Assembly (NCBI GenBank): GCA_964016885.1
Contig: OZ024751.1
Coordinates: 49,414,001-49,478,000 of the forward strand
DNA from: Eledone cirrhosa
Lineage: Eukaryota
Length of the DNA: 64,000 bases
Direction of reading: 5' to 3'
Within the stretch, counting starts at the first letter, position 1; each line of letters opens with the position of its first letter. Made by a program: the position numbers and the translations under genes. This document shows positions 26,356-62,779 of this stretch, piece after piece. Below the pieces are notes generated by a model. That model was not told the DNA's origin. It searched no databases and worked only from the letters and a program-made list of their open reading frames with translations.

Positions 26356-26520
26356 GTGAATATGTATATAACTATATATACCAGACTCCGATGTTGTTGC
26401 ATGGCTTCTATGTTGTCACAGAAACACGTTGTTAGCTCCCCATTCACTCACGTGTCCTGCATTGTAATATGAATACAGACAGGTATATACATACAGACAT
26501 ATACATATATAAATATATAT

Positions 26521-28927
26521 ATATATGTGAATATAGACATAGAATATTCGAAAATATTCTGTATGTTTATAATAAACATTTTGAAGACCTAATCGCTATA
26601 GAATAGAATACGTCACGTATTACAATTAGATTCTCGATAAAAGAAAGGGAAGTAATCTACGCGTTTCATTCTTGTTAGAATTCATCAGGACTACATATCC
26701 AGTGCTTTTATCGAGAATGGCACAGCTAGAGACTTATAGAATACTTAGCTGTGTACAGGAACTGGTTTGAAAGAGCGGTTGCCGGTCCGGCAGAAATTAG
26801 AAATTGGAATAAATGCTCTGAAATAGCGATATATATGTGAATATAGACATAGAATATTCGAAAATATTCTGTATGTTTATAATAAACATTTTGAAGACCT
26901 AATCGCTATAGAATAGAATACGTCACGTATTACAATTAGATTCTCGATAAAAGAAAGGGAAGTAATCTACGCGTTTCATTCTTGTTAGAATTCATCAGGA
27001 CTACATATCCAGTGCTTTTATCGAGAATGGCACAGCTAGAGACTTATAGAATACTTAGCTGTGTACAGGAACTGGTTTGAAAGAGCGGTTGCCGGTCCGG
27101 CAGAAATTAGAAATTGGAATAAATGCTCTGAAATAGCGATATATATGTGAATATAGACATAGAATATTCGAAAATATTCTGTATGTTTATAATAAACATT
27201 TTGAAGACCTAATCGCTATAGAATAGAATACGTCACGTATTACAATTAGATTCTCGATAAAAGAAAGGGAAGTAATCTACGCGTTTCATTCTTGTTAGAA
27301 TTCATCAGGACTACATATCCAGTGCTTTTATCGAGAATGGCACAGCTAGAGACTTATAGAATACTTAGCTGTGTACAGGAACTGGTTTGAAAGAGCGGTT
27401 GCCGGTCCGGCAGAAATTAGAAATTGGAATAAATGCTCTGAAATAGCGATATATATGTGAATATAGACATAGAATATTCGAAAATATTCTGTATGTTTAT
27501 AATAAACATTTTGAAGACCTAATCGCTATAGAATAGAATACGTCACGTATTACAATTAGATTCTCGATAAAAGAAAGGGAAGTAATCTACGCGTTTCATT
27601 CTTGTTAGAATTCATCAGGACTACATATCCAGTGCTTTTATCGAGAATGGCACAGCTAGAGACTTATAGAGTACTTAGCTGTGTACAGGAACTGGTTTGA
27701 AAGAGCGGTTGCCGGTCCGGCAGAAATTAGAAATTGGAATAAATGCTCTGAAATAGCGATATATATGTGAATATAGACATAGAATATTCGAAAATATTCT
27801 GTATGTTTATAATAAACATTTTGAAGACCTAATCGCTATAGAATAGAATACGTCACGTATTACAATTAGATTCTCGATAAAAGAAAGGGAAGTAATCTAC
27901 GCGTTTCATTCTTGTTAGAATTCATCAGGACTACATATCCAGTGCTTTTATCGAGAATGGCACAGCTAGAGACTTATAGAATACTTAGCTGTGTACAGGA
28001 ACTGGTTTGAAAGAGCGGTTGCCGGTCCGGCAGAAATTAGAAATTGGAATAAATGCTCTGAAATAGCGATATATATGTGAATATAGACATAGAATATTCG
28101 AAAATATTCTGTATGTTTATAATAAACATTTTGAAGACCTAATCGCTATAGAATAGAATACGTCACGTATTACAATTAGATTCTCGATAAAAGAAAGGGA
28201 AGTAATCTACGCGTTTCATTCTTGTTAGAATTCATCAGGACTACATATCCAGTGCTTTTATCGAGAATGGCACAGCTAGAGACTTATAGAATACTTAGCT
28301 GTGTACAGGAACTGGTTTGAAAGAGCGGTTGCCGGTCCGGCAGAAATTAGAAATTGGAATAAATGCTCTGAAATAGCGATATATATGTGAATATAGACAT
28401 AGAATATTCGAAAATATTCTGTATGTTTATAATAAACATTTTGAAGACCTAATCGCTATAGAATAGAATACGTCACGTATTACAATTAGATTCTCGATAA
28501 AAGAAAGGGAAGTAATCTACGCGTTTCATTCTTGTTAGAATTCATCAGGACTACATATCCAGTGCTTTTATCGAGAATGGCACAGCTAGAGACTTATAGA
28601 ATACTTAGCTGTGTACAGGAACTGGTTTGAAAGAGCGGTTGCCGGTCCGGCAGAAATTAGAAATTGGAATAAATGCTCTGAAATAGCGATATATATGTGA
28701 ATATAGACATAGAATATTCGAAAATATTCTGTATGTTTATAATAAACATTTTGAAGACCTAATCGCTATAGAATAGAATACGTCACGTATTACAATTAGA
28801 TTCTCGATAAAAGAAAGGGAAGTAATCTACGCGTTTCATTCTTGTTAGAATTCATCAGGACTACATATCCAGTGCTTTTATCGAGAATGGCACAGCTAGA
28901 GACTTATAGAATACTTAGCTGTGTACA
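26521..28927 (-). repeat. 310-bp tandem array, left arm (7 full copies + ~237 bp), with 8 hammerheads (first 26652-26694, then every 310 bp)
   Basis: Unit starts at 26521, 26831, ... 28691. The only difference seen is A>G at 27671. Confidence 0.95.
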
Positions 28928-30512
28928 TATATATCGCTATTTCAGAGCATTTATTCCAATTTCTAATTTCTGCCGGACCGGCAACCGCTCTTTCAAACCA
29001 GTTCCTGTACACAGCTAAGTATTCTATAAGTCTCTAGCTGTGCCATTCTCGATAAAAGCACTGGATATGTAGTCCTGATGAATTCTAACAAGAATGAAAC
29101 GCGTAGATTACTTCCCTTTCTTTTATCGAGAATCTAATTGTAATACGTGACGTATTCTATTCTATAGCGATTAGGTCTTCAAAATGTTTATTATAAACAT
29201 ACAGAATATTTTCGAATATTCTATGTCTATATTCACATATATATCGCTATTTCAGAGCATTTATTCCAATTTCTAATTTCTGCCGGACCGGCAACCGCTC
29301 TTTCAAACCAGTTCCTGTACACAGCTAAGTATTCTATAAGTCTCTAGCTGTGCCATTCTCGATAAAAGCACTGGATATGTAGTCCTGATGAATTCTAACA
29401 AGAATGAAACGCGTAGATTACTTCCCTTTCTTTTATCGAGAATCTAATTGTAATACGTGACGTATTCTATTCTATAGCGATTAGGTCTTCAAAATGTTTA
29501 TTATAAACATACAGAATATTTTCGAATATTCTATGTCTATATTCACATATATATCGCTATTTCAGAGCATTTATTCCAATTTCTAATTTCTGCCGGACCG
29601 GCAACCGCTCTTTCAAACCAGTTCCTGTACACAGCTAAGTATTCTATAAGTCTCTAGCTGTGCCATTCTCGATAAAAGCACTGGATATGTAGTCCTGATG
29701 AATTCTAACAAGAATGAAACGCGTAGATTACTTCCCTTTCTTTTATCGAGAATCTAATTGTAATACGTGACGTATTCTATTCTATAGCGATTAGGTCTTC
29801 AAAATGTTTATTATAAACATACAGAATATTTTCGAATATTCTATGTCTATATTCACATATATATCGCTATTTCAGAGCATTTATTCCAATTTCTAATTTC
29901 TGCCGGACCGGCAACCGCTCTTTCAAACCAGTTCCTGTACACAGCTAAGTATTCTATAAGTCTCTAGCTGTGCCATTCTCGATAAAAGCACTGGATATGT
30001 AGTCCTGATGAATTCTAACAAGAATGAAACGCGTAGATTACTTCCCTTTCTTTTATCGAGAATCTAATTGTAATACGTGACGTATTCTATTCTATAGCGA
30101 TTAGGTCTTCAAAATGTTTATTATAAACATACAGAATATTTTCGAATATTCTATGTCTATATTCACATATATATCGCTATTTCAGAGCATTTATTCCAAT
30201 TTCTAATTTCTGCCGGACCGGCAACCGCTCTTTCAAACCAGTTCCTGTACACAGCTAAGTATTCTATAAGTCTCTAGCTGTGCCATTCTCGATAAAAGCA
30301 CTGGATATGTAGTCCTGATGAATTCTAACAAGAATGAAACGCGTAGATTACTTCCCTTTCTTTTATCGAGAATCTAATTGTAATACGTGACGTATTCTAT
30401 TCTATAGCGATTAGGTCTTCAAAATGTTTATTATAAACATACAGAATATTTTCGAATATTCTATGTCTATATTCACATATATATCGCTATTTCAGAGCAT
30501 TTATTCCAATTT
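28925..30512 (+). repeat. 310-bp tandem array, inverted right arm (5 full copies + ~35 bp), with 5 hammerheads (first 29069-29111, then every 310 bp)
   Basis: Exact reverse complement of the left-arm unit. ATATCGCTAT recurs at 28931, 29241, ... 30481. Confidence 0.95.
29069..29111 (+). ncRNA. Minimal type I hammerhead ribozyme (representative of 13 copies)
   Basis: GUAGUC-CUGAUGA-AUUCU-AACA-AGAAU-GAAAC-GC-GUA|GAUUAC. Catalytic core intact. Palindromic ACGCGU in stem III. Confidence 0.92.
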
Positions 30513-30626
30513 ATATATATATATATATATGAAAAAGTATGACCCCCTATTTTCCACTCTACTACCTTAAGTATTGAGTAATCTGGTGCGTTATGTTCCA
30601 TCTGGTTCCTTACCACAATTCCTTTG

Positions 30627-39698: not shown

Positions 39699-40802
39699 CA
39701 AGTATATGCGTAGTTCATGAGGATTATCATTCATTAGTAATACTCTCTTACTAAGGTATTCTCGGGTTATAAATATATAAGTTCTTATAAATGCAAAATT
39801 TCCATGAAGGTTAATTTACATATAATGCAAAATTGTCAGGTTAGTAGTAATTAACAGTACCACATAAATATATATCCCCAATAGTTATCGGATCGAAAGT
39901 CGCGGGAATATTATTAACACATGAGGAATCCAGTACTTTATATACGCATTCATCTATTTCGACGCAACCTCTAACTTCTCAAAAAGACAAACACATATAC
40001 GGTCACATACAGAAGCATACATACACACACATATATGTGTGTGTATGTGTGAACGTATTAGAAAGGGAGAAAGGTGGGGTGATAGATTGATAAATAGATT
40101 GTGTTTCATAAGTATGGTAGACCAATGAAAACTATTGTAAGGAAGGGACGATTAAAAGTGGGATGCAACAAGCAGAATGCTAATGCTTTAATATTCCGTG
40201 AGCAGTAAGTTCGGCGAGTAAATTACAGACATTAAACTAAATTTATTACTGGTGCCATGTTTAGATAAATTTGCCTGTTAACCCAGAATTACTGAAGAAT
40301 CGTAACTGAAAATTTAAAATTATTTTAATCAGTTAGACTTTCTGCTACAAGGAACAATTGAATAATAATAATTATAAACACACACGCACACAGACACACA
40401 GACACACACACAGACACACAGACACACACACAGACACACAGACACACACACAAACAACTATATATATATTATATATATATAAATATATATATATATAACG
40501 AAGGGAGTGTGGTAAGGAACCAGGTAGACCATAACGCACCAGAGTACTCGATACTTTGGGTAGTAGAGTAGGTAATAGGAAAAGGTGCAGGACCCCGACG
40601 GCAGAGCTCAAGCCGTTTCAACGGTTATTTCTGGACTCGAGAAATGGCGTCCAGAAATAGCCGTCGGGGTCCTGAACCTTTTCCTATATATATATATATG
40701 TGTGTGTGTTGGAAAAGTAAATATCAACAACAAGGAGTACAGTTACGAAAGGTGTTAGGTATTAGGTTCACGCTTGAGAGTGTGGTGGGGGATGGGGGGG
40801 GG

Positions 40803-41481: not shown

Positions 41482-42010
41482 GAAATAGCGATGTATACAT
41501 GAATATATGTATAGTATATTTGGCAATATACCGTATGTTTAATTTAAAATATTTTGAAGACCTTGCGTTATCATTTTAAAGTAGTGACTATGTCACTTAC
41601 TTCTTTTTTCGGCAAATTAAACATACGGTATATTGCCAAATATACTATACATATATTCATGTATACATCGCTATTTCAGAGAACCAATTCTAACTTTTTA
41701 TTTTTGCTGGACCGGCAATCGCTCTGTATAATCAGTTCCTGATTATTACTGGAATTCTATAAGAATCCAGCCTCTATAATTTTCGGCAGAGGCGAGGAGT
41801 ACGTTGCTCTGAGGATCACCAACAGTGTGAAACAGAATCTGTCAGCTTCTCTCCCTTCGTCTGCCGAAAAAAGTAGTAAGTGTCATAGTCACTACATTAA
41901 AATGATAGCGCAAGGTCTTCAACATATTTTAAATTAAATATACGGTATATTACCAAACATACTATACATACATTCATGTATACATCGCTATTTCAGAGCA
42001 CCGATTCTAA
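41482..42010 (+). mobile_element. Diverged relative of the 310-bp unit (317-bp monomer plus overlap, preceded by an inverted arm), HHR at 41806-41846
   Basis: ATCGCTATTTCAGAG occurs at 41667 and 41984. Shares GGACCGGCAA, CAGTTCCTG, TTCTATAAG and AGGTCTTCAA with the array. HHR: GCU-CUGAGGA-UCAC..GUGU-GAAACAG-AAU-CUGUC-AGC. Confidence 0.8.
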
Positions 42011-42057
42011 TATATATATATATATATAGTTCTGTAATAAACAACATAAGGCAATTA

Positions 42058-42118
42058 TTTCATTTACTAGTGGTTTCTTAAAAGCAAACAAATTTTGCTT
42101 TCAATCATCAGAATGAAA
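42058..42118 (-). ncRNA. Hammerhead ribozyme in the PLE 3' UTR
   Basis: UUUCAUU-CUGAUGA-UUGAAAGCAAA-AUUUG-UUUGCUUUUAA-GAAAC-CACUA-GUA-AAUGAAA. Confidence 0.9.
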
Positions 42119-42483
42119 AAATCCTGGTGTATGTATTGGCATTGGATTTTAAAAACAAAAATATAATCTATATGAAAGTGAGGCTGGAAAAGGAAGAATG
42201 AAAGGAAAAATAAACACACATGCACACGCACACACACACACACAATTATATACATACACATATATACACATACACACATATATACATACACACATATACA
42301 CACACACACACATATATGTGTATATATATACATACACATACATATACACATACATACATACACACATATATATCAACATATCCATACAAACAGATGCATA
42401 CACATACACAAACATGCATACACACACACATGCATATATATATATATATATAAATATAAATATATATATACATGTATACACAC

Positions 42484-42514
<31 letters not shown>

Positions 42515-42932
42515 CACATACATACACATACATACATACATATATACACATACATACATACATACACACAATCATACATATATACACACGTACATACACC
42601 TACATACATACACATATATATAACGCATACATACGCATGCACAAATATAGAAATATGTACACACACCTACATACTCACACACACAAATAATTATAAGAAA
42701 ACATATAATAATAAAAATACCGTCAAAAAAATGAATATGAACATTATTATAGTGTTGACAGCGATACAGGCAACAAATAAATGAACAAACACACGTGGTA
42801 AGCAATACACGCAATTGCACGTACACATACATACGTAAAAATAAATACATACGCATTCTCACACATACATATACAATTACATATACACATACATACGCAT
42901 ACACATATATATACACACACATAACCATATAT

Positions 42933-42983
<51 letters not shown>

Positions 42984-43110
42984 CATATCCATACATACAT
43001 ACACATACATACATATCACAAACACATACATACAAACACAAACACACACATAAGTATGTGTGTAAAACTCATTCTTAGATGTATTCATATGAACCTTGTT
43101 TAACTCTAAA

Positions 43111-43150
<40 letters not shown>

Positions 43151-43186
43151 ACCTACACACACATATACATACACATACATATGCAT

Positions 43187-43245
<59 letters not shown>

Positions 43246-43680
43246 AGAAAAAACATAAATATTATATATATAAAAAAACATAAATATTGTATCTATAAAA
43301 ATAAAAAGTTGGGAATACGACAAATAATAAATAAAAAATAATTATAAAAGGGTATAAATGTTTATAGCTGATTTAAATCACTCTATGTAATTATGCATAT
43401 ACACACACATACATATACATATATATATACATATATATACACACACGCACACACAAACACAACCAATACACACACACATACATACACATACATACATATA
43501 CGCATATATATATACACACACACATAGGAAAAAGTATGACCCCACGGTGAGCTCAAGCCGTTTCTGAGGCTATTATATATATACACACAAAACCATTATA
43601 TAAAAATACATATACACGCACAAATATACACACGCCCACACACACACATTATATCTATATATACACACATACATACACAC

Positions 43681-43809
<129 letters not shown>

Positions 43810-43895
43810 GCACAAATACAACAGAAGCATATAAAATACAATTATATATATATATACATATACATACAGATAAATATAAACATACATACACACAC

Positions 43896-43941
<46 letters not shown>

Positions 43942-43943
43942 GC

Positions 43944-43987
<44 letters not shown>

Positions 43988-44220
43988 TAAATATCTAAAA
44001 ATAAAAAAATTGGGTATGTGAAGGGTAAGACAGCAAGTAAGGGGGAAAATAAAGAAAATAAATGACATAGGAAAAGGTTTAAATATAAGGGGAGATAAGG
44101 GAGAAAGAGAATACGAGAGTACAGAAAGTGAATTCAGAAGGTAAAAAAACCGTAGTGGATGTAATGCGTAGAAAGCAAAGAAGGAGTTCAAGGTGGTTGA
44201 GTTATCGTAGGAATGCCACA

Positions 44221-45690
44221 TCAGTTACAGATCAGATGTGATTTCAGGTGAGGACAACATCTGAAGATCTCGGTCTTTGAGTTCAGGCAAGCAGAAGTGG
44301 CTTTCAAGTTTTGTAAAATCCTAAATTTTTCAGTGGTACACAAAGAACAATTCTTTGTGCCCCTTTGGTACTTCCTCGAATGGTATAAAATAGACCAATC
44401 GATAGAGTACGGGATGTTTTTATCCTTGAATTCCCACAATTTACTTGCGAGGGCCGTTGCTTTTCTTTTATCGGAGTGCTTAAAAGAAGCGACATGTGCA
44501 TAAAACCTGGTTTTAAACCTGTCCTGGGTTCATGCCAACATATCGGTCACTCCTGGCTGGCTGGTTGTTGATTAAAGGTATCACTTTGGCCTCATATACA
44601 ACGGATTTGGTGTTACATTTGCCCTGTAATGGGCATTCATCCGGCTTCCTGTAACTGCATCCTGGATTTATTCTCGTACGATTTGAATTAGTGATTTTAG
44701 ACTTCATTGATGGGTAACAAGAGTGACTGATCTTAACTACATTTCTATTAAATATCTTATAATATCTATGATTAGGAGGAAAATGTTTATCTAAGAGGTC
44801 AAGGAATTTCCTTCCTACATTAGTTTTGACAGTTAGCGAGAAGGGGGTTGTAAACCAAATAATTTTCCTTTTCCTATTATTGTGGTTAGTTTTAGGGGGG
44901 GGGGGGGGGTAAATAATTAATTTGTTCTGTAAATCCGCTGTTATTAAGGGCTTTATTATAATAAGCGGCGGCTTTATTAAAAATGTCTAGAGACGAAGAT
45001 AAGGTAGAAATCCTACGGCTAATGTTTGGAATAAGATTTTTAAAAACTATAGGGTGATGGCAAGACTCTTTGTGTATATATCTAACATTTTCGTCAGGTT
45101 TATGATAAGGTTTAAAAGAGGCAGTAAGTAGATCAAGATTAATGTAAAGAAAGTTAGCATTGGTAAGGTTCGTATCTATAGTAATTTTAAGGTTAAGATT
45201 AGTAAAAGTATTGATTAAATCTTTACGGAATTTATCAAGGTTATGGCCGTTGGTGGTATGAGAAACTGCAAATCCGTCGTCACGGTATAAACCGATATTA
45301 TGGGAAGGAAATTTCTCTTTGAGGGTGTGGAGAAGGAATAATCCTACTAAGTCACACACATCCGCACTGTAATATGAACCCATTGCAACATCGAAAGAGT
45401 TTTCAGAGTTTGACTTTTTAACCCAAATAATTGCATTAGTAAAGAGGAAAGTTTTTCTAGCATGAAAGATAATGTCTTCTTCTAATTTAGAAATATTAAT
45501 GAAAGGGTCTTGCAAACTCTAAGGCATTAGTTAATAAGGAAAGAGTAATAGTGGGGTAAAATTCAACAATATCAAATTGGGTAAATCTACACTTATTTTT
45601 ACCTTGTATATTATTAAACCAAGAAATAACAGAGAATGTATTTAACCATTAGTTCTAATTTGGAGAATTATTTTTCTTAAGATTTTTTTA
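44221..45690 (-). pseudogene. PLE reverse transcriptase plus C-terminal GIY-YIG endonuclease, frameshifted
   Basis: FDIVEFYPTI, FDVAMGS, IGLYRDDG, RKRKIIWF..PFS..VKTNVG, CPLQGKC..VVY..RYVG, CSLCTTEK, LNSKTEIFRCCPH. Frameshifts near 45510, at the poly-G 44895-44909 and near 44520. Confidence 0.9.
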
Positions 45691-45770
45691 CTTGCAAGGC
45701 CAAGATACAATATTTATATTTATAGATACAATATTTATGTTTTTTTATATATATAATATTTGTTTTTTCT

Positions 45771-45808
<38 letters not shown>

Positions 45809-45839
45809 CATATGTATGTGTATGTATATGTGTGTGTAG

Positions 45840-45877
<38 letters not shown>

Positions 45878-45989
45878 GTATTTTAGAGTTAAACAAGGTT
45901 CATATGAATACATCTAAGAATGAGTTTTACGCATACTTATGTGTGTTTGTATTTGTATGTATGTGTTTGTGATATGTATGTATGTATGG

Positions 45990-46095
<106 letters not shown>

Positions 46096-46470
46096 GTGTA
46101 TATGGTTATGTGTGTGTATATATATGTGTATGCGTATGTATGTGTATATGTAATTGTATATGTATGTGTACGTGCAATTGTGTGTATTGCTTACCACGTG
46201 TGTTTGTTCATTTATTTGTTGCCTGTATCGCTGTCAATAATAATTTTTATATTCATTTTTTTGACGGTATTTTTATTATTATATTTTTTCTTATAATTAT
46301 TTGTGTGTGTGAGTATGTAGGTGTGTGTACATATTTCTATATTTGTGCATGCGTATGTATGCGTGTATATATGTGTGTATGTATGTGTATATAGGTGTGT
46401 ATATATGTATGATTGTGTGTATGTATGTATGTCTGTGTATATATGTATGTATGTGTATGTATGTGTGTAT

Positions 46471-46502
<32 letters not shown>

Positions 46503-46869
46503 GTGTGTATATATGTATATATATATATTTATATATATATATATATACATGTGTCTGTGTGTGTATGCATGTTTGTGTATTTGTATGTATGTGTATGTAT
46601 GGATATGTTGATATATATGTGTGTATGTATGTATGTGTATATGTATGTGTATGTATATATATATACACATATATATGTGTGTGTGTTTATGTGTGTATGT
46701 ATATATGTGTGTATGTGTATATATGTGTATGTATATAATTGTGTGTGTGTGTGTCTGTGCGTGTGCATGTGTGTTTATTTTTCCTTTCCTTCTTCCTTTT
46801 CCAGTCTCACTTTCATATAGATTATATTTTTGTTTTTAAAATCCAATGCCAATAAATACACCAGGATTT

Positions 46870-46930
46870 TTTCATTCTGATGATTGAAAGCAAAATTTGT
46901 TTGCTTTTAAGAAACCACTGGTAAATGAAA
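46870..46930 (+). ncRNA. Hammerhead ribozyme in the inverted pseudo-LTR
   Basis: Same as 42058-42118, with stem III ACC-ACU-GGU and a GUA triplet. Confidence 0.9.
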
Positions 46931-47024
46931 TGATTGCCTTATGTTGTTTATTTCATAACTATTAAGCTCTGTTATTTACATAGAGCACTCTTTTTTCCTG
47001 GACCTTTCCGACGGAATTACTTCA

Positions 47025-47519: not shown

Positions 47520-50161
47520 TCCTTGAATCTCAGTCATTGATGTTGGTTAACTGGAAAGTCCGTTGGATTGAATATCAAGCCACTACCTGCAGCCTCAGAT
47601 ATTCAGGACGTATCGGAGGGTTCTTGCTGTTCCAAGCAAGCATGCCTTTTGAAGCGTTCCAAAAAGCGTGAAGGGGCCGATTTTCTTTAACCATCCCTGG
47701 AAACCTTTGGAGATAGTCCCCAGTGCGCCTATGACAATCGGGATCACTTTGACTTCATGGCAGTTCCAAATCCTTTTCACCTCCCACTTTAGGTCCTGGT
47801 ATCGGCTAATTTTCTCCCTCTCCTTCTCTTGCACTCTCGTGTCGAACGGGCAGGCCACATCCACAATCAGGCACGATCTTTTTTCTTTGTCCACAACCAC
47901 CAGGTCAGGTCTATTGTGTTCCAGTTTTTTGTCCGTCTGTATCCTAAAATCCCACAGCACCTTCACCTGACTGTTCTCCATCCCCGCCTCTGGCCTATGC
48001 TCATACCATTTCTCAGAATGTGGTAGATTGTTTACTTTGCACAGGTGCCAGTGGATCACCCTGCCCATCACATCGTGTCTCCAGCCCTTATAGTGGGTCT
48101 GGGCTAGGTGTTTACACTCGGACACAATGTGAGCCACAGTCTCCTCTCTCTCTCCACAGATCCTGCACAGTGGGCTAGCCTCCTCCTTGTAGATATGGTG
48201 CTTCAACCACTTCGTTTTGAGGGCCTGCTCCTGCGCAGCCATTAGCATTCCTTCTGTAGCCTTTTTGAGGTCTCCTCTTCTCAACCAGTTCCATGTCTGT
48301 GGATCTCTAAATTCAGTTTTCTCAAAGAAGGTACTATGAAGGGATTTTCCCTTAAGGCTGCTCTTCCTCCTTGATGTTATTTCCTCCTTGGACATCCCCT
48401 GGCCTACTGTCCCCTCCTTCAGTACAGTTCTGAGCATTGGCTCCTTACTATAGGTCACGTATTTGTATAGGTTGTTTTTCTCCATCTGAACACAGTCCTC
48501 TATGCTGATAAGACCTCTTCCACCCTCAGATCTCCTTAGGTAGAGTCTATCGACATCACTCCTCTTGTGGAACATGTTGTAGATAGTCAATAGCTTCCTA
48601 GTCTTCCTATCCATTTCTTTTTGTTCAGCAACATTCCATCTCAGAATTCCCGCACTGTACCTAATAATGGACACAGCTCGGGAATTTACTGCGCTTATGG
48701 CATTTCTGCTGTTCAGATGTGACTTCAATACGCTCCTTACTCTCCGATGTATTCAGTTCTTAACAATTCCTTCATTTTTTTGTTCTTTATGCCATCAGCC
48801 TCCAGAACGCCCAAATACTTGTATCCTTCCTCAGAGTCAATTTCCTTTATCATCTCACCTGTTGGTATCTGGATCCCGTTACTTCTGCTCAACCTACCCC
48901 TCTTCATCACAATGACTCCACATTTACCAATACCAAACTGCATACATATATCACTGCTGAAAATACGGACAGTGTCAACAAGCACATCCAACTCCTTCTC
49001 ACTTTTCCCGAAGAGCTTAAGATCGTCCATGAAGAGGAGGTGATTGATGGTAAGCTCTCCCCTTCCCAACTTGTATCCTGCTCTCACTTTTCGCAGCATA
49101 ATGGTCAAGGGCATCAGGGCAAGGACAAACAACAGAGGGGACAGGCTATCTCCCTGGAAGATACCTCTCTTGATCTTCACGCTTCCCAAGGATACTCCAG
49201 TTGATGTCAACTCTGTCTCCCAGGACCCCATACTCCTGCCCAGCAACTGTCTGATGTTATCTGCCACCCTGAAGACCTCCAGGCTTTTGGTGATCCAGGA
49301 ATGAGGCACCATGTCAAATGCCTTTCTGTAGTCTATCCATCCCATGGCAAGATCAGTGTGTCTCCTCCTGCAATTCCCCATTACCATCTTATCAATAAGC
49401 AACTGGTCCTTTGTACCACGTGACTTCTTTCGGCATCCTTTCTGTTCGTCCGGTAACAAGTTGTTTGTGTGGAGGTGATGGTAGATTTCCTCAGACACAA
49501 TGCTCGTCAACAGTTTCCACATTACGGGCAGACATGTGATAGGTCTATAGTTGGTAACATCATTACCCTTGATTCGGTCTTTCATTATCAGAACTGTGGT
49601 ACCTTTTGTCAACCACTCTGGCACCTCACCCGACACCAAACAGTCATTGAACATGGCCGTCAGCTTCGGGTGGAGGGATGTTAAATGTTTAATCCAATAC
49701 CCCTGCACACCATCTGGGCCTGGCGATTTCCAGTTGGTTAGTTTTTTGGCTTGCCCCTTAAGAGTTTCAACTGTGATACTCAAATCAGTCTGTTGTTGTG
49801 CCTGCTCACCGATCTCCCTCTGTACTGTCTCAATCCACCCTGCCTGGGCATTGTGTCTAACATCCTGCTCCCATATTCCTCTCCAGAATGTTTTAGCTTG
49901 TTCCGCCCCAGGGATCAAGTCGTTGCCTCTTTGTTTCCCCTCAAGCTGTCCAAACACCATCTTCTGGTTGTTGTCGAACATGCGGTTCTGTTTATACTGA
50001 CTGACTCTGTTCTCGTATCGCCTGATTTTGGCACTCTTTGCTACAATGCGTTGCTTCAATTCCTCTATGATAATATTTAGCTTTTTACTCCTAGTTTTGT
50101 ATTTTATTTCCAGTCTATTTTTAGTGCCTATGTTTTTTAGTGTCCCATTCAGTAGTGACTC

Positions 50162-50162
<1 letters not shown>
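47520..50162 (-). mobile_element. R4/Dong-type non-LTR retrotransposon, family 1, 5'-truncated, one frameshift near 48735
   Basis: RT (NYRPITCL, WIDYRKAFD, GIFQGDSLSP, FMDD), CCHC CRICGEREETVAHIVSEC, RHD, RPDL..DVACP..EK endonuclease. The 3' end abuts (TAA)n. Confidence 0.92.
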
Positions 50163-50212
<50 letters not shown>

Positions 50213-50215
<3 letters not shown>

Positions 50216-52292
50216 AGTTGCATTTATCTTGCTTTATGTTCATACGAGTTATCACCAAGTCACAACCAGTGACCTCAAGAGACAACAAGGTCCGCCATGT
50301 TCAAGAAAGAACATACATACTCACACATGCATCTTTAGTGTTTAGACTTGTGATGTACTTATATTGACAGAATCTTCCTTAGTATATGGGCAGTTCCCAT
50401 TAGTACTATCTTTTGTATTTCTCCTATACGCGGGTTTCCTGGGATTTGCGATAAGTAATCATTAGACCCCTTAGATATCATTCCCAGAGCGCCTAAAACC
50501 ACTGTACAAATACTTGCTCAATTTTTCAAATGTTTTTATAGATACATTCTTGTCTATTGGAACAGACATATCAATTAGCAGGCATACCCTCTTTTTAAAG
50601 TCCTTCAATATTATATCAGGTCTATTTGCATCTATTTTTCGGTCTGTTTGGATGCTAAAGTTCCACAAGATTGAGATGTGATCTTTTTCAAGTATGGGAG
50701 GTGGTTGATGCTCCCACCAATTCTTTTGATGGGGCATATCAAAATGCTTACACATTATCCAATGTATGTATTGTGCAGCTCTGTCATGCCTGTTTAGGTA
50801 TTCGGTTGGAGCTATGGGACTGCACATTGAAATTATATGGTCAATGGTCTCTGGTTGTTTTTTGCATACACGGCATAATGGGCTGCATCCATTTTTTATT
50901 ATGTTGGCTTGGTAATTTTTTGTTGGCAGACACTGATCTTGTGCTGATATAATCAGTCCTTCAGTCTCCAATTTCAGTCCAGAGGATGCCAACCACTGAT
51001 GGGTTAAAGTTTTGTCAACATCAGGATTGTTAGCTCGCTCTGGGTATTTTCCATACAGAGGCTTTTCTTGCCATTTCTTAGCCAGTTTCTGTAGCAGTTC
51101 TTTCTTTGCAGTTACTTTTACCTGCTTTGCTTTTTCTGTGTTTTCCATTTCAGCAGTAAATGGGACTTCTGAAATTTGTAGTCCATTACTGTATCTTTGT
51201 GCATCTTTTGTAATGGAATATGATCTTTTGATGCTTTCGTGTTTCAAAACGAGTTTGATCATCCAATCATGTGATTCCCTTAGATATGTAGATAATCCAA
51301 TTGTTGCAGTTTTCAACGCAATGTCTAACTGGATTAACCCACGTCCTCCTTCTTTCCTAGGGAGATATATTCTATCTGTATCTGCCTTAGGGTGATGCAT
51401 TCTGTGCATGGTTAAGAATTTTAGAATTTTTGTATCGAGCCTACGGATCTCTGTGCTTGACCAGTTGATGGCATTGTAACTGTAGGTTACTACTGGTATG
51501 GCAAGCGTGTTTATGGCATCGATCCTATTCCTTGCATTCAATTGCGTTCTTAAGATTGCTCTTACTCTGCGGTAACATTCCTTCCTTATCCTTTCCCTCA
51601 TTGTCGAGTGCTTGATTCCGTCTCCTTCACAAACACCTAGATATTTGTAAGTTTTTTCTTGATCAAGTTCTCTTATCACGTTCCCCCGATCAAGATTAAT
51701 GTCTGAACTCCTCAGCAGCTTTCCTCTTGTGAACGTAGCTTTGGCGCATTTATCTAGTCCAAACTCCGTTTTAATGTCATCACTGAACTGCTCCACAGTG
51801 GATAATAGCCCTTGCAATTGTTCATAATTTTTTTGCAAATAGTTTCAGGTCATCCATGTAGAACAAGTGATTAATGGTTTTGTCATAGACTTTATAACAT
51901 GTTTTGTTTCATTGAGCATTTTACTTAATGGTATAAGTGCGATGCAGAATAAAAGCAGTGATAAAGAGACACCCTGAAAAATACCACAATTAATATTAAC
52001 TCCTCCAGCTTCCAGTGATTGTGTTTCACTATTCAAAAGGAGTGTCGTTTTCCATGTCTTCATACTGAATGACAAAAACCTCCTGACAACGGGGGATATT
52101 TTGAAAATCTCTAAACATTTTTCAATCCAACTGTGTGGCAAACTATCGAATGCTTTTTTATAATCTATTCAAGCAATTGATAGATTTTTGTGTCTATTAT
52201 GACAATCTTCCAGTATCATTTTGTTAACCAAAAGCTGATCCTTACAGCCATATGAGCCTCGTTTACACCCTTTCTGCTCAATGGGAAATAGG
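50213..52292 (-). mobile_element. R4/Dong-type retrotransposon, family 2 copy A (pseudogenised, internal deletion near 50505)
   Basis: GCKDQLL, GIFQG, YMDD, CRVC..H..C, RHD, RPDII..DMSVP. (TAA)n at 50166-50213. Confidence 0.9.
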
Positions 52293-52322
<30 letters not shown>

Positions 52323-52324
<2 letters not shown>

Positions 52325-54120
52325 AGTTGCATTTATCTTGCTTTATGTTCATACGAGCTATCACCAAGTCACAACCAGTGACCTCAAGAGACAACAAGGT
52401 CCGCCATGTTCAAGAAAGAACATACATACTCACACATGCATCTTTAGTGTTTAGACTTGTGATGTACTTATGTTGACAGAATCTTCCTTAGTATATGGGC
52501 AGTTCCCATTAGTACTATCTTTTCTATTTCTCCTATACGCGGGTTTCCTGGGATTTGCGATAAGTAATCATTAGACCCCATACGTATCATTCCCAGAGCG
52601 CCTACAACCACTGGTATTGTTTTAGTTCTCAATTTCCACATTTTTCCAATTTCTATCTCCAGGTCCTTATACTTGCTCAATTTTTCAAATGTTTTTATAG
52701 ATACATTCTTGTCTATTGGAACAGACATATCAATTAGCAGGCATACCCTCTTTTTAAAGTCCTTCAGTATTATATCAGGTCTATTTGCATCTATTTTTCG
52801 GTCTGTTTGGATGCTAAAGTTCCACAAGATTGAGATGTGATCTTTTTCAAGTATGGGAGGTGGTTGATGCTCCCACCAATTCTTTTGATGGGGCATGTCA
52901 AACTGCTTACACATTATCCAATGTATGTATTGTGCAGCTCTGTCATGCCTGTTTAGGTATACGGTTGGAGCTATAGGACTGCACATTGAAATTATATGGT
53001 CAATGGTCTCTGGTTGTTTTTTGCATACACGGCATAATGGGCTGCATCCATTTTTTATTATGTTGGCTTGGTAATTTTTTGTTGGCAGACACTGATCTTG
53101 TGCTGATATAATTAGTCATTCAGTCTCCGATTTCAGTCCAGAGGATGCCAACCACTGATGGGTTAAAGTTTTGTCAACATCAGGATTGTTAGCTCGCTCT
53201 GGGTATTTTCCATACAGAGGCTTTTCTTGCCATTTCTTAGCCAGTTTCTGTAGCAGTTCTTTCTTTGCAGTTACTTTTACCTGCTTTGCTTTTTCTGTGT
53301 TTTCCATTTCAGCAGTAAATGGGACTTCTGAAATTTGTAGTCCATTACTGTATCTTTGTGCATCTTTTGTAATGGAATATGATCTTTTGATGCTTTCGTG
53401 TTTCAAAACGAGTTTGATCATCCAATCATGTGATTTCCTTAGATATGTAGATAATCCAATTGTTGCAGTTTTCAACGCAATATCTAACTGGATTAACCCA
53501 CGTCCTCCTTCTTTCCTAGGGAGATATATTCTGTCTATATCTGCCTTAGGATGATGCATTCTGTGCATGGTTAAGAATTTTAGAATTTTTGTATCGAGCC
53601 TACGGATCTCTGTGCTTGACCAGTTGATGGCATTGTAACTGTAGGTTACTACTGGTATGGCAAGCGTGTTTATGGCATCGATCCTATTCCTTGCATTCAA
53701 TTGCGTTCTTAAGATTGCTCTTACTCTGCGGTAACATTCCTTCCTTATCCTTTCCCTCATTGTCGAGTGCTTGATTCCGTCTCCTTCACAAACACCTAGA
53801 TATTTGTAAGTTTTTTCTTGATCAAGTTCTCTTATCACGTTCCCCCGATCAAGATTAATGTCTGAACTCCTCAGCAGCTTTCCTCTTGTGAACGTAGCTT
53901 TGGCGCATTTATCTAGTCCAAACTCCGTTTTAATGTCATCACTGAACTGCTCCACAGTGGATAATAGCCCTTGCAATTGTTCATCATTTTTTTGCAAATA
54001 GTTTCAGGTCATCCATGTAGAACAGGTGATTAATGGTTTTGTCATAGACTTTATATCCATGTTTTGTTTCATTGAGCATTTTACTTAATGGTATAAGTGC
54101 GATGCAGAATAAAAGCGGTG
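52323..54120 (-). mobile_element. R4/Dong-type retrotransposon, family 2 copy B (premature stop at 53116)
   Basis: Near-identical to copy A with the same 3' UTR and a shorter 5' end. (TAA)n on both sides. Confidence 0.9.

Positions 54121-60584: not shown

Positions 60585-62779
<2,195 letters not shown>

What the first reader, a model, noticed from the sequence alone, without database searches (positions are those of the whole stretch)
41482..42010. Diverged sister monomer showing structural covariation with the 310-bp unit
Seen: same motif order, different stems that still pair. The outer helix is TTTTCGGCAGA/TCTGCCGAAAA against TTCTCGATAAA/TTTATCGAGAA. CTGGA..TTCTATAAG..TCCAG corresponds to CAGCTA..TTCTATAAG..TAGCTG, and GTATATT-GCCA-AATATAC to GAATATT-TTCG-AATATTC. 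The HHR stems are entirely different. Inference: an old, diversified family of ~310-nt structured RNAs under selection for fold. The conserved blocks (GGACCGGCAA, AGGTCTTCAA, ATCGCTATTTCAGAG) are candidate promoter or RT-binding signals.
Basis: partly seen in the sequence, partly recalled or inferred. Interest (0 to 1): 0.75.

Follow-up and report, generated by a model that had tools for sequence, protein, structure and literature searches.

The report
Fossil retrozyme with conserved RNA fold
This is a worn copy of a small non-coding jumping repeat whose many sister families in this animal genome changed their letters but kept the same predicted self-cutting RNA fold; it is likely a retrozyme copied by Penelope-type transposons, a known kind of element.

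Summary
The quoted motifs are present. The stretch is not a lone monomer. It is a back-to-back insertion: an inverted arm (41482-41614) plus 1.25 direct copies of a 317-bp unit (41615-42010), ending in (TA)n. The unit carries a type I hammerhead motif. Sampling G000 gave 12-14 sister subfamilies, 61-99% identical. Covariation holds in the deeper alignment for the outer helix, hammerhead stems I and II and the core pair C3-G8/U3-A8, with weaker support for the GTATATT hairpin. It does not hold for the CTGGA/TCCAG helix. This copy is decaying (about 3% per arm), so selection acted on the parent RNAs. Ends, (TA)n targets and inversion match Penelope-like elements, but no partner element and no RNA evidence were found. 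Relative-rate tests suggest parent lineages changed several times faster than host DNA. It is a new member of a known kind (non-LTR retrozymes). The scan has already described this family, including the U3-A8 swap, on other DNA of this genome.

The parts
41482..41614 (-). Inverted arm of the insertion (unit positions matching 41862-41994); runs 17 nt past end E1 and stops short of end E2
   Evidence: blastn 93% over 133 bp; junction and flank printed
41615..42010 (+). Direct arm, 1.25 copies of a 317-bp unit of subfamily B1 (U.U stem II variant), ending at end E2 next to (TA)n
   Evidence: 41614-41693 repeats at 41931-42010, 92.5%
41628..41645 (+). Intact GTATATT-GCCA-AATATAC hairpin in the partial first copy (decayed twin at 41945-41962)
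   Evidence: 98 of 98 subfamily cells paired
41667..41726 (+). Conserved block ATCGCTATTTCAGAG (predicted to pair with 41904-41910 and 41722-41726) and GGACCGGCAA hairpin
   Evidence: near-invariant, so pairing is neither supported nor refuted by covariation
41749..41770 (+). CTGG..TTCTATAAG..CCAG hairpin; TTCTATAAG identical in 14 of 14 subfamily majorities (a search anchor); outer stem not maintained
41780..41870 (+). 13-bp outer helix (41780-41792 with 41858-41870) enclosing the hammerhead
   Evidence: 173 of 174 subfamily cells paired; 8 of 13 pairs change on both sides; 41791-41859 E=0.0002 among proposed pairs
41803..41849 (+). Type I hammerhead motif: stem I 41803-41808/41844-41849, CUGAGGA 41809-41815, stem II 41816-41828, GAAA 41829-41832, palindromic stem III, predicted cut after C41843
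   Evidence: sequence; covariation; no Rfam hammerhead hit; cleavage untested
41978..42011 (+). 34-nt tail between the two fixed ends E1 (after CATTCAT, 41977) and E2
42010..42029 (.). (TA)n target, shared with the end of a neighbouring Penelope-like element
26519..30512 (.). Young sister subfamily A: 7.8 units on the minus strand back-to-back with 5.1 units on the plus strand, 310 bp each, 99-100% identical

Best explanation
This is a decaying two-armed genomic copy of a 317-bp non-coding repeat with a conserved hammerhead-type fold, likely a non-LTR retrozyme that was reverse-transcribed from a self-cut, probably circular RNA by a borrowed Penelope-like enzyme. Shown: the unit, the motif, the dispersed subfamilies, the compensatory changes between them, the two fixed ends 34 nt apart, the (TA)n targets, and decay after insertion. 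Inferred: tandem copies are transcribed; the hammerhead cuts out unit-length RNA (the palindromic stem III may allow dimer folding); the RNA is ligated to a circle; a Penelope-like RT/GIY-YIG protein nicks (TA)n and copies the RNA from ends E1 and E2 on the two sides of the break, leaving back-to-back arms that cross the cut site and exceed one unit. Only RNAs that kept the hammerhead and its closing helix founded the next subfamily, which produces the covariation.
For: Family size: 16,180 exact matches to one two-block pattern, control 0; 4,145 for the U3-A8 branch; 188 exact 30-mers for B1. Covariation. RNA rather than DNA symmetry: the isolated pair 41809-41814 is C-G in 104 and U-A in 79 of 188 scored insertions, other states in 5; G-U outnumbers A-C 26 to 4 in the five covarying helices. 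Fossil status: 7 of 9 departures from the majority in 41874-41958 are absent from the inverted arm; in B1 copies 127 stem mutations break pairs and 81 keep them. Penelope signature: 120 back-to-back insertions among 222 classified; 68 of the 120 pair E1 with E2, 6 have E1 twice, none has two clean E2 ends. Craig et al. (PMC8557442, passages) describe inverted 5' copies, a 30-40 bp tail at one end and (TA)n targeting for PLEs. Several PLE families with long ORFs occur in G000.
Against: No transcript, cleavage or circle was seen. No partner PLE shares terminal sequence with the family: 80 PLE loci were scanned with a family profile, and the strong hits (L243, L289, L287) look like separate inserted copies. 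Rfam finds no hammerhead. The lowest-energy folds of this copy and of three relatives do not form the active hammerhead. In the all-pairs test only 1 proposed pair reaches E<0.05, and an unproposed pair (41772-41791) ranks first. Two of five shuffle measures are not significant (36 and 334 of 500). Over all helices G-U versus A-C is only 42 to 30. Li et al. (bioRxiv 10.64898/2026.07.22.740005) saw cleavage for only 1 of 9 predicted Xenopus retrozymes. This locus is atypical, because both arms run past E1.
Confidence: 0.85

Rival explanations
1. The compensatory changes come from DNA-level symmetry repair (template switching in hairpins) in a satellite or MITE-like repeat, not from selection on an RNA.
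For: Most compensatory changes sit in inverted repeats and are transitions; both strands of this copy fold about equally well (z -2.75 and -2.92).
Against: The best-supported proposed pair (41809-41814) is an isolated catalytic-core pair inside no inverted repeat. Twelve outer-helix cells are G-U, and A-C is rare on this strand. The hammerhead core diverges less between subfamilies (0.14) than paired (0.22) or unpaired (0.24) sites.
Confidence: 0.04
2. The unit is the detached terminal repeat (pLTR) of an autonomous Penelope-like element and is copied from linear multi-unit transcripts; no circle is involved and cleavage only trims the RNA.
For: Li et al. 2026 report homology of 24 of 57 Xenopus retrozyme families to known TEs, nearly all PLEs. 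B1 arms are mostly under two units, which a linear tandem transcript could supply. U3-A8 was first reported in PLE hammerheads (PMC4209133).
Against: No PLE ORF was attached to the unit in the loci examined. Young insertions hold many near-identical units on both arms, which is easier to explain by a circle. The stems are canonical rather than minimal.
Confidence: 0.2
3. The covariation is an artefact of few related subfamilies and of my sampling by conserved patterns.
For: Only 12-14 subfamilies, assigned partly by eye, some with 2-6 members. One search's pattern fixed part of stem II. An unproposed pair tops the all-pairs list.
Against: Tree-aware nulls were used. The signal persists without the subfamilies that defined the fold: 18.9 paired double changes against 2.9, max 11, on data gathered before the stem-II patterns were used. 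Slid helices pair 33-46% against 87.5%.
Confidence: 0.05

Closest known systems
Metazoan non-LTR retrozymes (coral, mussel, axolotl; Cervera and de la Pena 2020, PMC7229834, keyword passages and parts 3-4 of 6 read; Li, Clavereau and Pollet 2026, bioRxiv 10.64898/2026.07.22.740005, parts 1-3 of 5 read)
   Same: Non-coding unit of about 300 bp with low GC and one type I hammerhead per unit; monomers to multimers; thousands of copies; coexisting families. A U.U mismatch at the base of stem II also occurs in axolotl HHR_Amex2.
   Different: Back-to-back two-armed insertions with two fixed ends, a dated series of 12-14 subfamilies, a covarying 13-bp helix closing the ribozyme and repeated C3-G8/U3-A8 switching are not described in the parts I read. 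Supplements were not read. Transcription and circles are not shown here.
Penelope-like elements and their pLTR hammerheads (Cervera and de la Pena 2014, PMC4209133, parts 1-2 of 4 read; Craig et al. 2021, PMC8557442, keyword passages)
   Same: Inverted 5' copy, partial tandem, 30-40 bp tail, (TA)n targeting, palindromic stem III, U3-A8 core variant (Schistosoma), many covarying families per genome.
   Different: No ORF; the hammerhead is canonical in size (4-bp stem II, 6-bp stem I), not the minimal form; no sequence link to any PLE examined here.
Earlier findings of this scan in the same genome (e1-8671497, e1-8840210, e1-9513279; AI notes, unchecked)
   Same: 310- and 320-bp hammerhead retrozymes, two-armed insertions, C3-G8/U3-A8 sister families.
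   Different: This report treats the B1 subfamily, tests each helix separately, finds at least two core switches on the tree rather than one, and adds a relative-rate result.

Membership tests
Non-LTR retrozyme | Short non-coding unit (about 170-400 bp) in dispersed monomers to tandem multimers | tested here: met
   317-bp unit; dispersed copies on many contigs; arrays in sister subfamilies A and G; no ORF of 120 aa or more overlaps the locus
Non-LTR retrozyme | One type I hammerhead motif per unit | tested here: met
   Core, three stems and covariation; not detected by Rfam
Non-LTR retrozyme | Two consecutive units with complete hammerheads (Li et al.'s criterion for an 'active' element) | tested here: not met
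   This locus has one hammerhead; the window's A arrays meet the criterion
Non-LTR retrozyme | Self-cleavage in vitro | not testable with these tools
   Bench assay needed
Non-LTR retrozyme | Accumulation of unit-length linear and circular RNA | not testable with these tools
   Needs RNA data or northern blots; see Tried and rejected
Penelope-like element (autonomous) | RT plus GIY-YIG ORF | tested here: not met
   No ORF in the unit
PLE-mobilised non-autonomous element | Tandem/inverted insertion, 30-40 bp tail at one end, microsatellite target | tested here: met
   120 back-to-back insertions, ends 34 nt apart, (TA)n flanks
PLE-mobilised non-autonomous element | Terminal sequence shared with an autonomous partner | tested here: inconclusive
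   None in 80 PLE loci, a small sample of tens of thousands of candidates
LTR retrozyme (plant type) | Type III hammerhead in LTRs, 4-bp target duplication | tested here: not met
   Type I topology, no LTRs, (TA)n flanks

The most novel reading that the evidence does not exclude
The fossil series records an RNA lineage that evolves several times faster than the host genome while selection holds its fold. Examples are 34 versus 3 lineage-specific changes from subfamily F to G across under 2% of host divergence, and at least two concerted C3-G8/U3-A8 switches. The boldest reading is that these circles mutate and are selected as RNA, viroid-like, between genomic insertions.
Probability: 0.12. Interest if true: 0.8.

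Novelty: new member of a known kind. Interest (0 to 1): 0.4.

Why it matters
The class is known and the scan has met this family before, so the locus itself is ordinary. What adds value is the dated subfamily series. It shows which parts of a retrozyme RNA selection keeps: the hammerhead, a 13-bp closing helix, one hairpin and a tail block between the two insertion ends. It gives natural C3-G8 and U3-A8 versions in young arrays for cleavage tests. It also puts a first number (roughly 3-6 times host rate) on the fast sequence change for which Cervera and de la Pena (PMC4209133) suggested RNA-to-RNA steps.

Tried and rejected
Rfam: 0 hits at gathering threshold; 7 weak miRNA/sRNA matches caused by the inverted arm, rejected. 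Sequencing runs: no RNA holder listed. Runs X4-X6, labelled as other organisms, hold unit A as one 340-nt contig at depth 18-34 with almost no B cover; this fits trace DNA with a tandem array and was not used as evidence for circles or transfer. Partner search: the neighbouring Penelope-like family and the GIY-YIG loci share no terminal sequence; a 13-nt match ACATTCATGTATA in L282 is AT-rich and was set aside. ADAR-type editing along parent lineages: A>G 19 versus T>C 35 on the hammerhead strand, not supported. Idea that T41816 is decay: dropped, because U.U occurs in 10 of the first 100 listed B1 matches and in young A arrays. Alternative helix 41771-41775/41788-41792: 4-5 of 5 pairs in D, B4, B3 and B1 but 1-3 of 5 elsewhere, unresolved. 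The end classification missed short tails and was redone. One search failed. Rows dropped: 232 monomers cut to 149 by length and near-identity; satellite locus L201 left out of dating; 173 of 227 insertions were long enough. Literature searches for C3U/G8A gave nothing; searches for octopus or cephalopod with hammerhead, and retrozyme with covariation, listed no description of this family. The library lacks most subscription papers.

Full report
Setting. The window is G000:C11:49414001-49478000 of a 3.0-Gb animal assembly rich in (TA)n. A cephalopod is my guess from its look and was not tested. The window holds a young 310-bp array at 26519-30512 (subfamily A) and the locus in question.

Observation. 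Every quoted string is present. The locus is an inverted arm (41482-41614, 93% to 41862-41994) joined to 1.25 direct copies of a 317-bp unit (41615-42010), followed by (TA)n. The unit matches unit A at 194 of 321 columns, and both fold better than 100 of 100 shuffles. A type I hammerhead can be read by eye at 41803-41849, with a palindromic stem III and a predicted cut after C41843. Rfam does not report it.

Family. A two-block pattern shared by A and B has 16,180 exact matches and 0 in the control. A B1-specific 30-mer has 188, which suggests several hundred B1 copies given about 4% decay (inference). Patterns with altered spacing and subfamily motifs brought in further branches. From 232 distinct monomers, 149 were kept and grouped, partly by eye, into 14 subfamilies 61-99% identical. 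A later set of 227 insertions gave 12 groups.

Covariation. I fixed helices from this copy and unit A, then tested them on sequence-only alignments. Across 14 subfamily majorities the outer helix is paired in 173 of 174 cells, stem II in 50 of 56, proximal stem I in 71 of 84, the GTATATT hairpin in 98 of 98 and the CTGG/CCAG helix in 45 of 56. In the 10 subfamilies not used to define the fold, same-branch double changes were 21.4 (18.9 ending paired) against a null of 8.2 (2.9), with maxima of 17 and 11 in 5000 draws. By helix, the outer helix and stem II had p<0.001, stem I 0.008, the core pair 0.02, stem III 0.03 and the hairpin 0.04, uncorrected. Six helices (P2-P5b, P10) showed no double change and P1 could not be scored. 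On 39 natural copies, 87.5% of cells pair against 81.6% shuffled and 33-46% slid, and 230 cells change on both sides against 87; two other measures were not significant. My R-scape-like G-test with a tree null on 173 insertions found 5 of 79 proposed pairs at E<0.05. In the all-pairs mode only the core pair 41809-41814 (E 0.014) and an unproposed pair, 41772-41791, passed; in the earlier 149-row set the core pair ranked first. The unproposed pair fits an alternative helix in 4 of the 11 groups that could be scored and stays unexplained.

RNA or DNA. The core pair is C-G in 104 and U-A in 79 of 188 scored insertions, with other states in 5. It lies in no inverted repeat, so hairpin repair in DNA cannot explain it. 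The subfamily trees need at least two switches, or one switch plus recombination. U3-A8 is published for Schistosoma PLE hammerheads (PMC4209133, parts 1-2 of 4 read). G-U outnumbers A-C 26 to 4 in the covarying helices, but only 42 to 30 over all helices.

This copy is a fossil. It differs from its subfamily majority at 16 sites, three of which break pairs. Of 9 such sites also covered by the inverted arm, 7 are unique to the direct arm and 2 are shared. That fits one template for both arms followed by decay of about 3.4% per arm; the B1 mean is 3.15% from 31 of 48 insertions. In B1 copies, stems mutate almost as often as loops (3.7% versus 4.5%, p 0.03), and more stem mutations break pairs than keep them.

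Mobilisation. Arms end at two sites 34 nt apart, flanked by (TA)n. Of 222 classified insertions, 120 are back-to-back. Of these, 68 pair E1 with E2, 20 more probably do with ragged ends, 6 have E1 twice, none has two clean E2 ends, and the rest are truncated or unclear. This locus is an exception, because both arms pass E1. Craig et al. (PMC8557442, keyword passages) give inverted 5' copies, a 30-40 bp tail and (TA)n targets as PLE features. Cervera and de la Pena (PMC7229834, passages and parts 3-4 of 6) show circles for coral, mussel and axolotl retrozymes and propose PLEs as mobilisers. Li et al. (bioRxiv 10.64898/2026.07.22.740005, parts 1-3 of 5) link them phylogenetically. Supplements were not read and may show similar insertion forms. 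PLEs are abundant in G000, and one abuts this locus, but no shared terminus was found in 80 loci.

Conserved blocks. ATCGCTATTTCAGAG was not a search anchor. It is identical in 10 of 14 majorities, changed at one or two sites in 3 and not covered in 1. It sits in the tail between E1 and E2, which fits a recognition signal (inference). GGACCGGCAA and AGGTCTTCAA vary at their edges and were anchors. Promoter function is untested.

Rate. Arm-to-arm ages are A 0.3%, G 1.3%, F 3.1%, B1 3.2%, B2 4.5% and D 5.1%. Lineage-specific changes are 34 versus 3 (F to G), 28 versus 4 (B2 to E0), 62 versus 12 (D to A) and 11 versus 5 (B4 to B1, not significant). This implies parents changing roughly 3-6 times faster than host DNA. 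Caveats: small groups (6 dated F insertions), possible conversion between arms, and pattern-biased sampling. Serial transcription and reverse transcription through many short-lived parents can explain it without RNA-to-RNA copying.

Verdict. The element is most likely a non-LTR retrozyme, a new member of a known kind, and the scan has reported this family on other DNA of the same genome. Interest 0.4.

Noticed in passing
window 42030-46962: A two-armed Penelope-like insertion abuts the locus: RT and GIY-YIG remnants at 44513-45518 (minus; no Pfam hit; Hydra-like by eye and recalled motif), hammerhead motifs at 42111 (minus) and 46877 (plus), arms 91% alike. Locus L017 has the same neighbour independently.
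   Followed up: partly
window 40580-40685, 40512-40575, 30532-30625, 43527-43575: A long hairpin and related repeats with GAAAAAGTATGACCCC and GAGCTCAAGCCGTTTC motifs, another abundant repeat that also flanks L002, L003 and L029.
   Followed up: no
L201 (G000:C28:5643500-5652500): Degenerate satellite of many ~320-bp units of a U3-A8 subfamily with higher-order repeats; probably the kind of array in e1-8665619.
   Followed up: partly
L017:923-1814: Both arms share six non-majority changes, including GAAA to AAAA in the hammerhead core, so a probably dead ribozyme was copied, or the arms were converted.
   Followed up: partly
L281:7081-7197, L291:5206-5298, L282:7049-7607, L266:2773-2977: Other hammerhead repeats (one with about 511-bp spacing) whose stem II resembles that of unit A; possible ribozyme exchange between families.
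   Followed up: no
L247:506-568: Weak profile hit (E 4e-5) that may be an older, more distant subfamily.
   Followed up: no
window 47595-54003 and 60689-62600: Several non-LTR retrotransposon RT fragments on the minus strand (RVT_1 at 48740-50233), two of them near-duplicates.
   Followed up: no
L012, L013, L019 (G000:C440): The same B1 insertion recurs at about 26-kb spacing, so it lies inside a large tandem unit.
   Followed up: no
window 20659 and 39010 (plus): Two further hammerhead-like cores outside the family.
   Followed up: no
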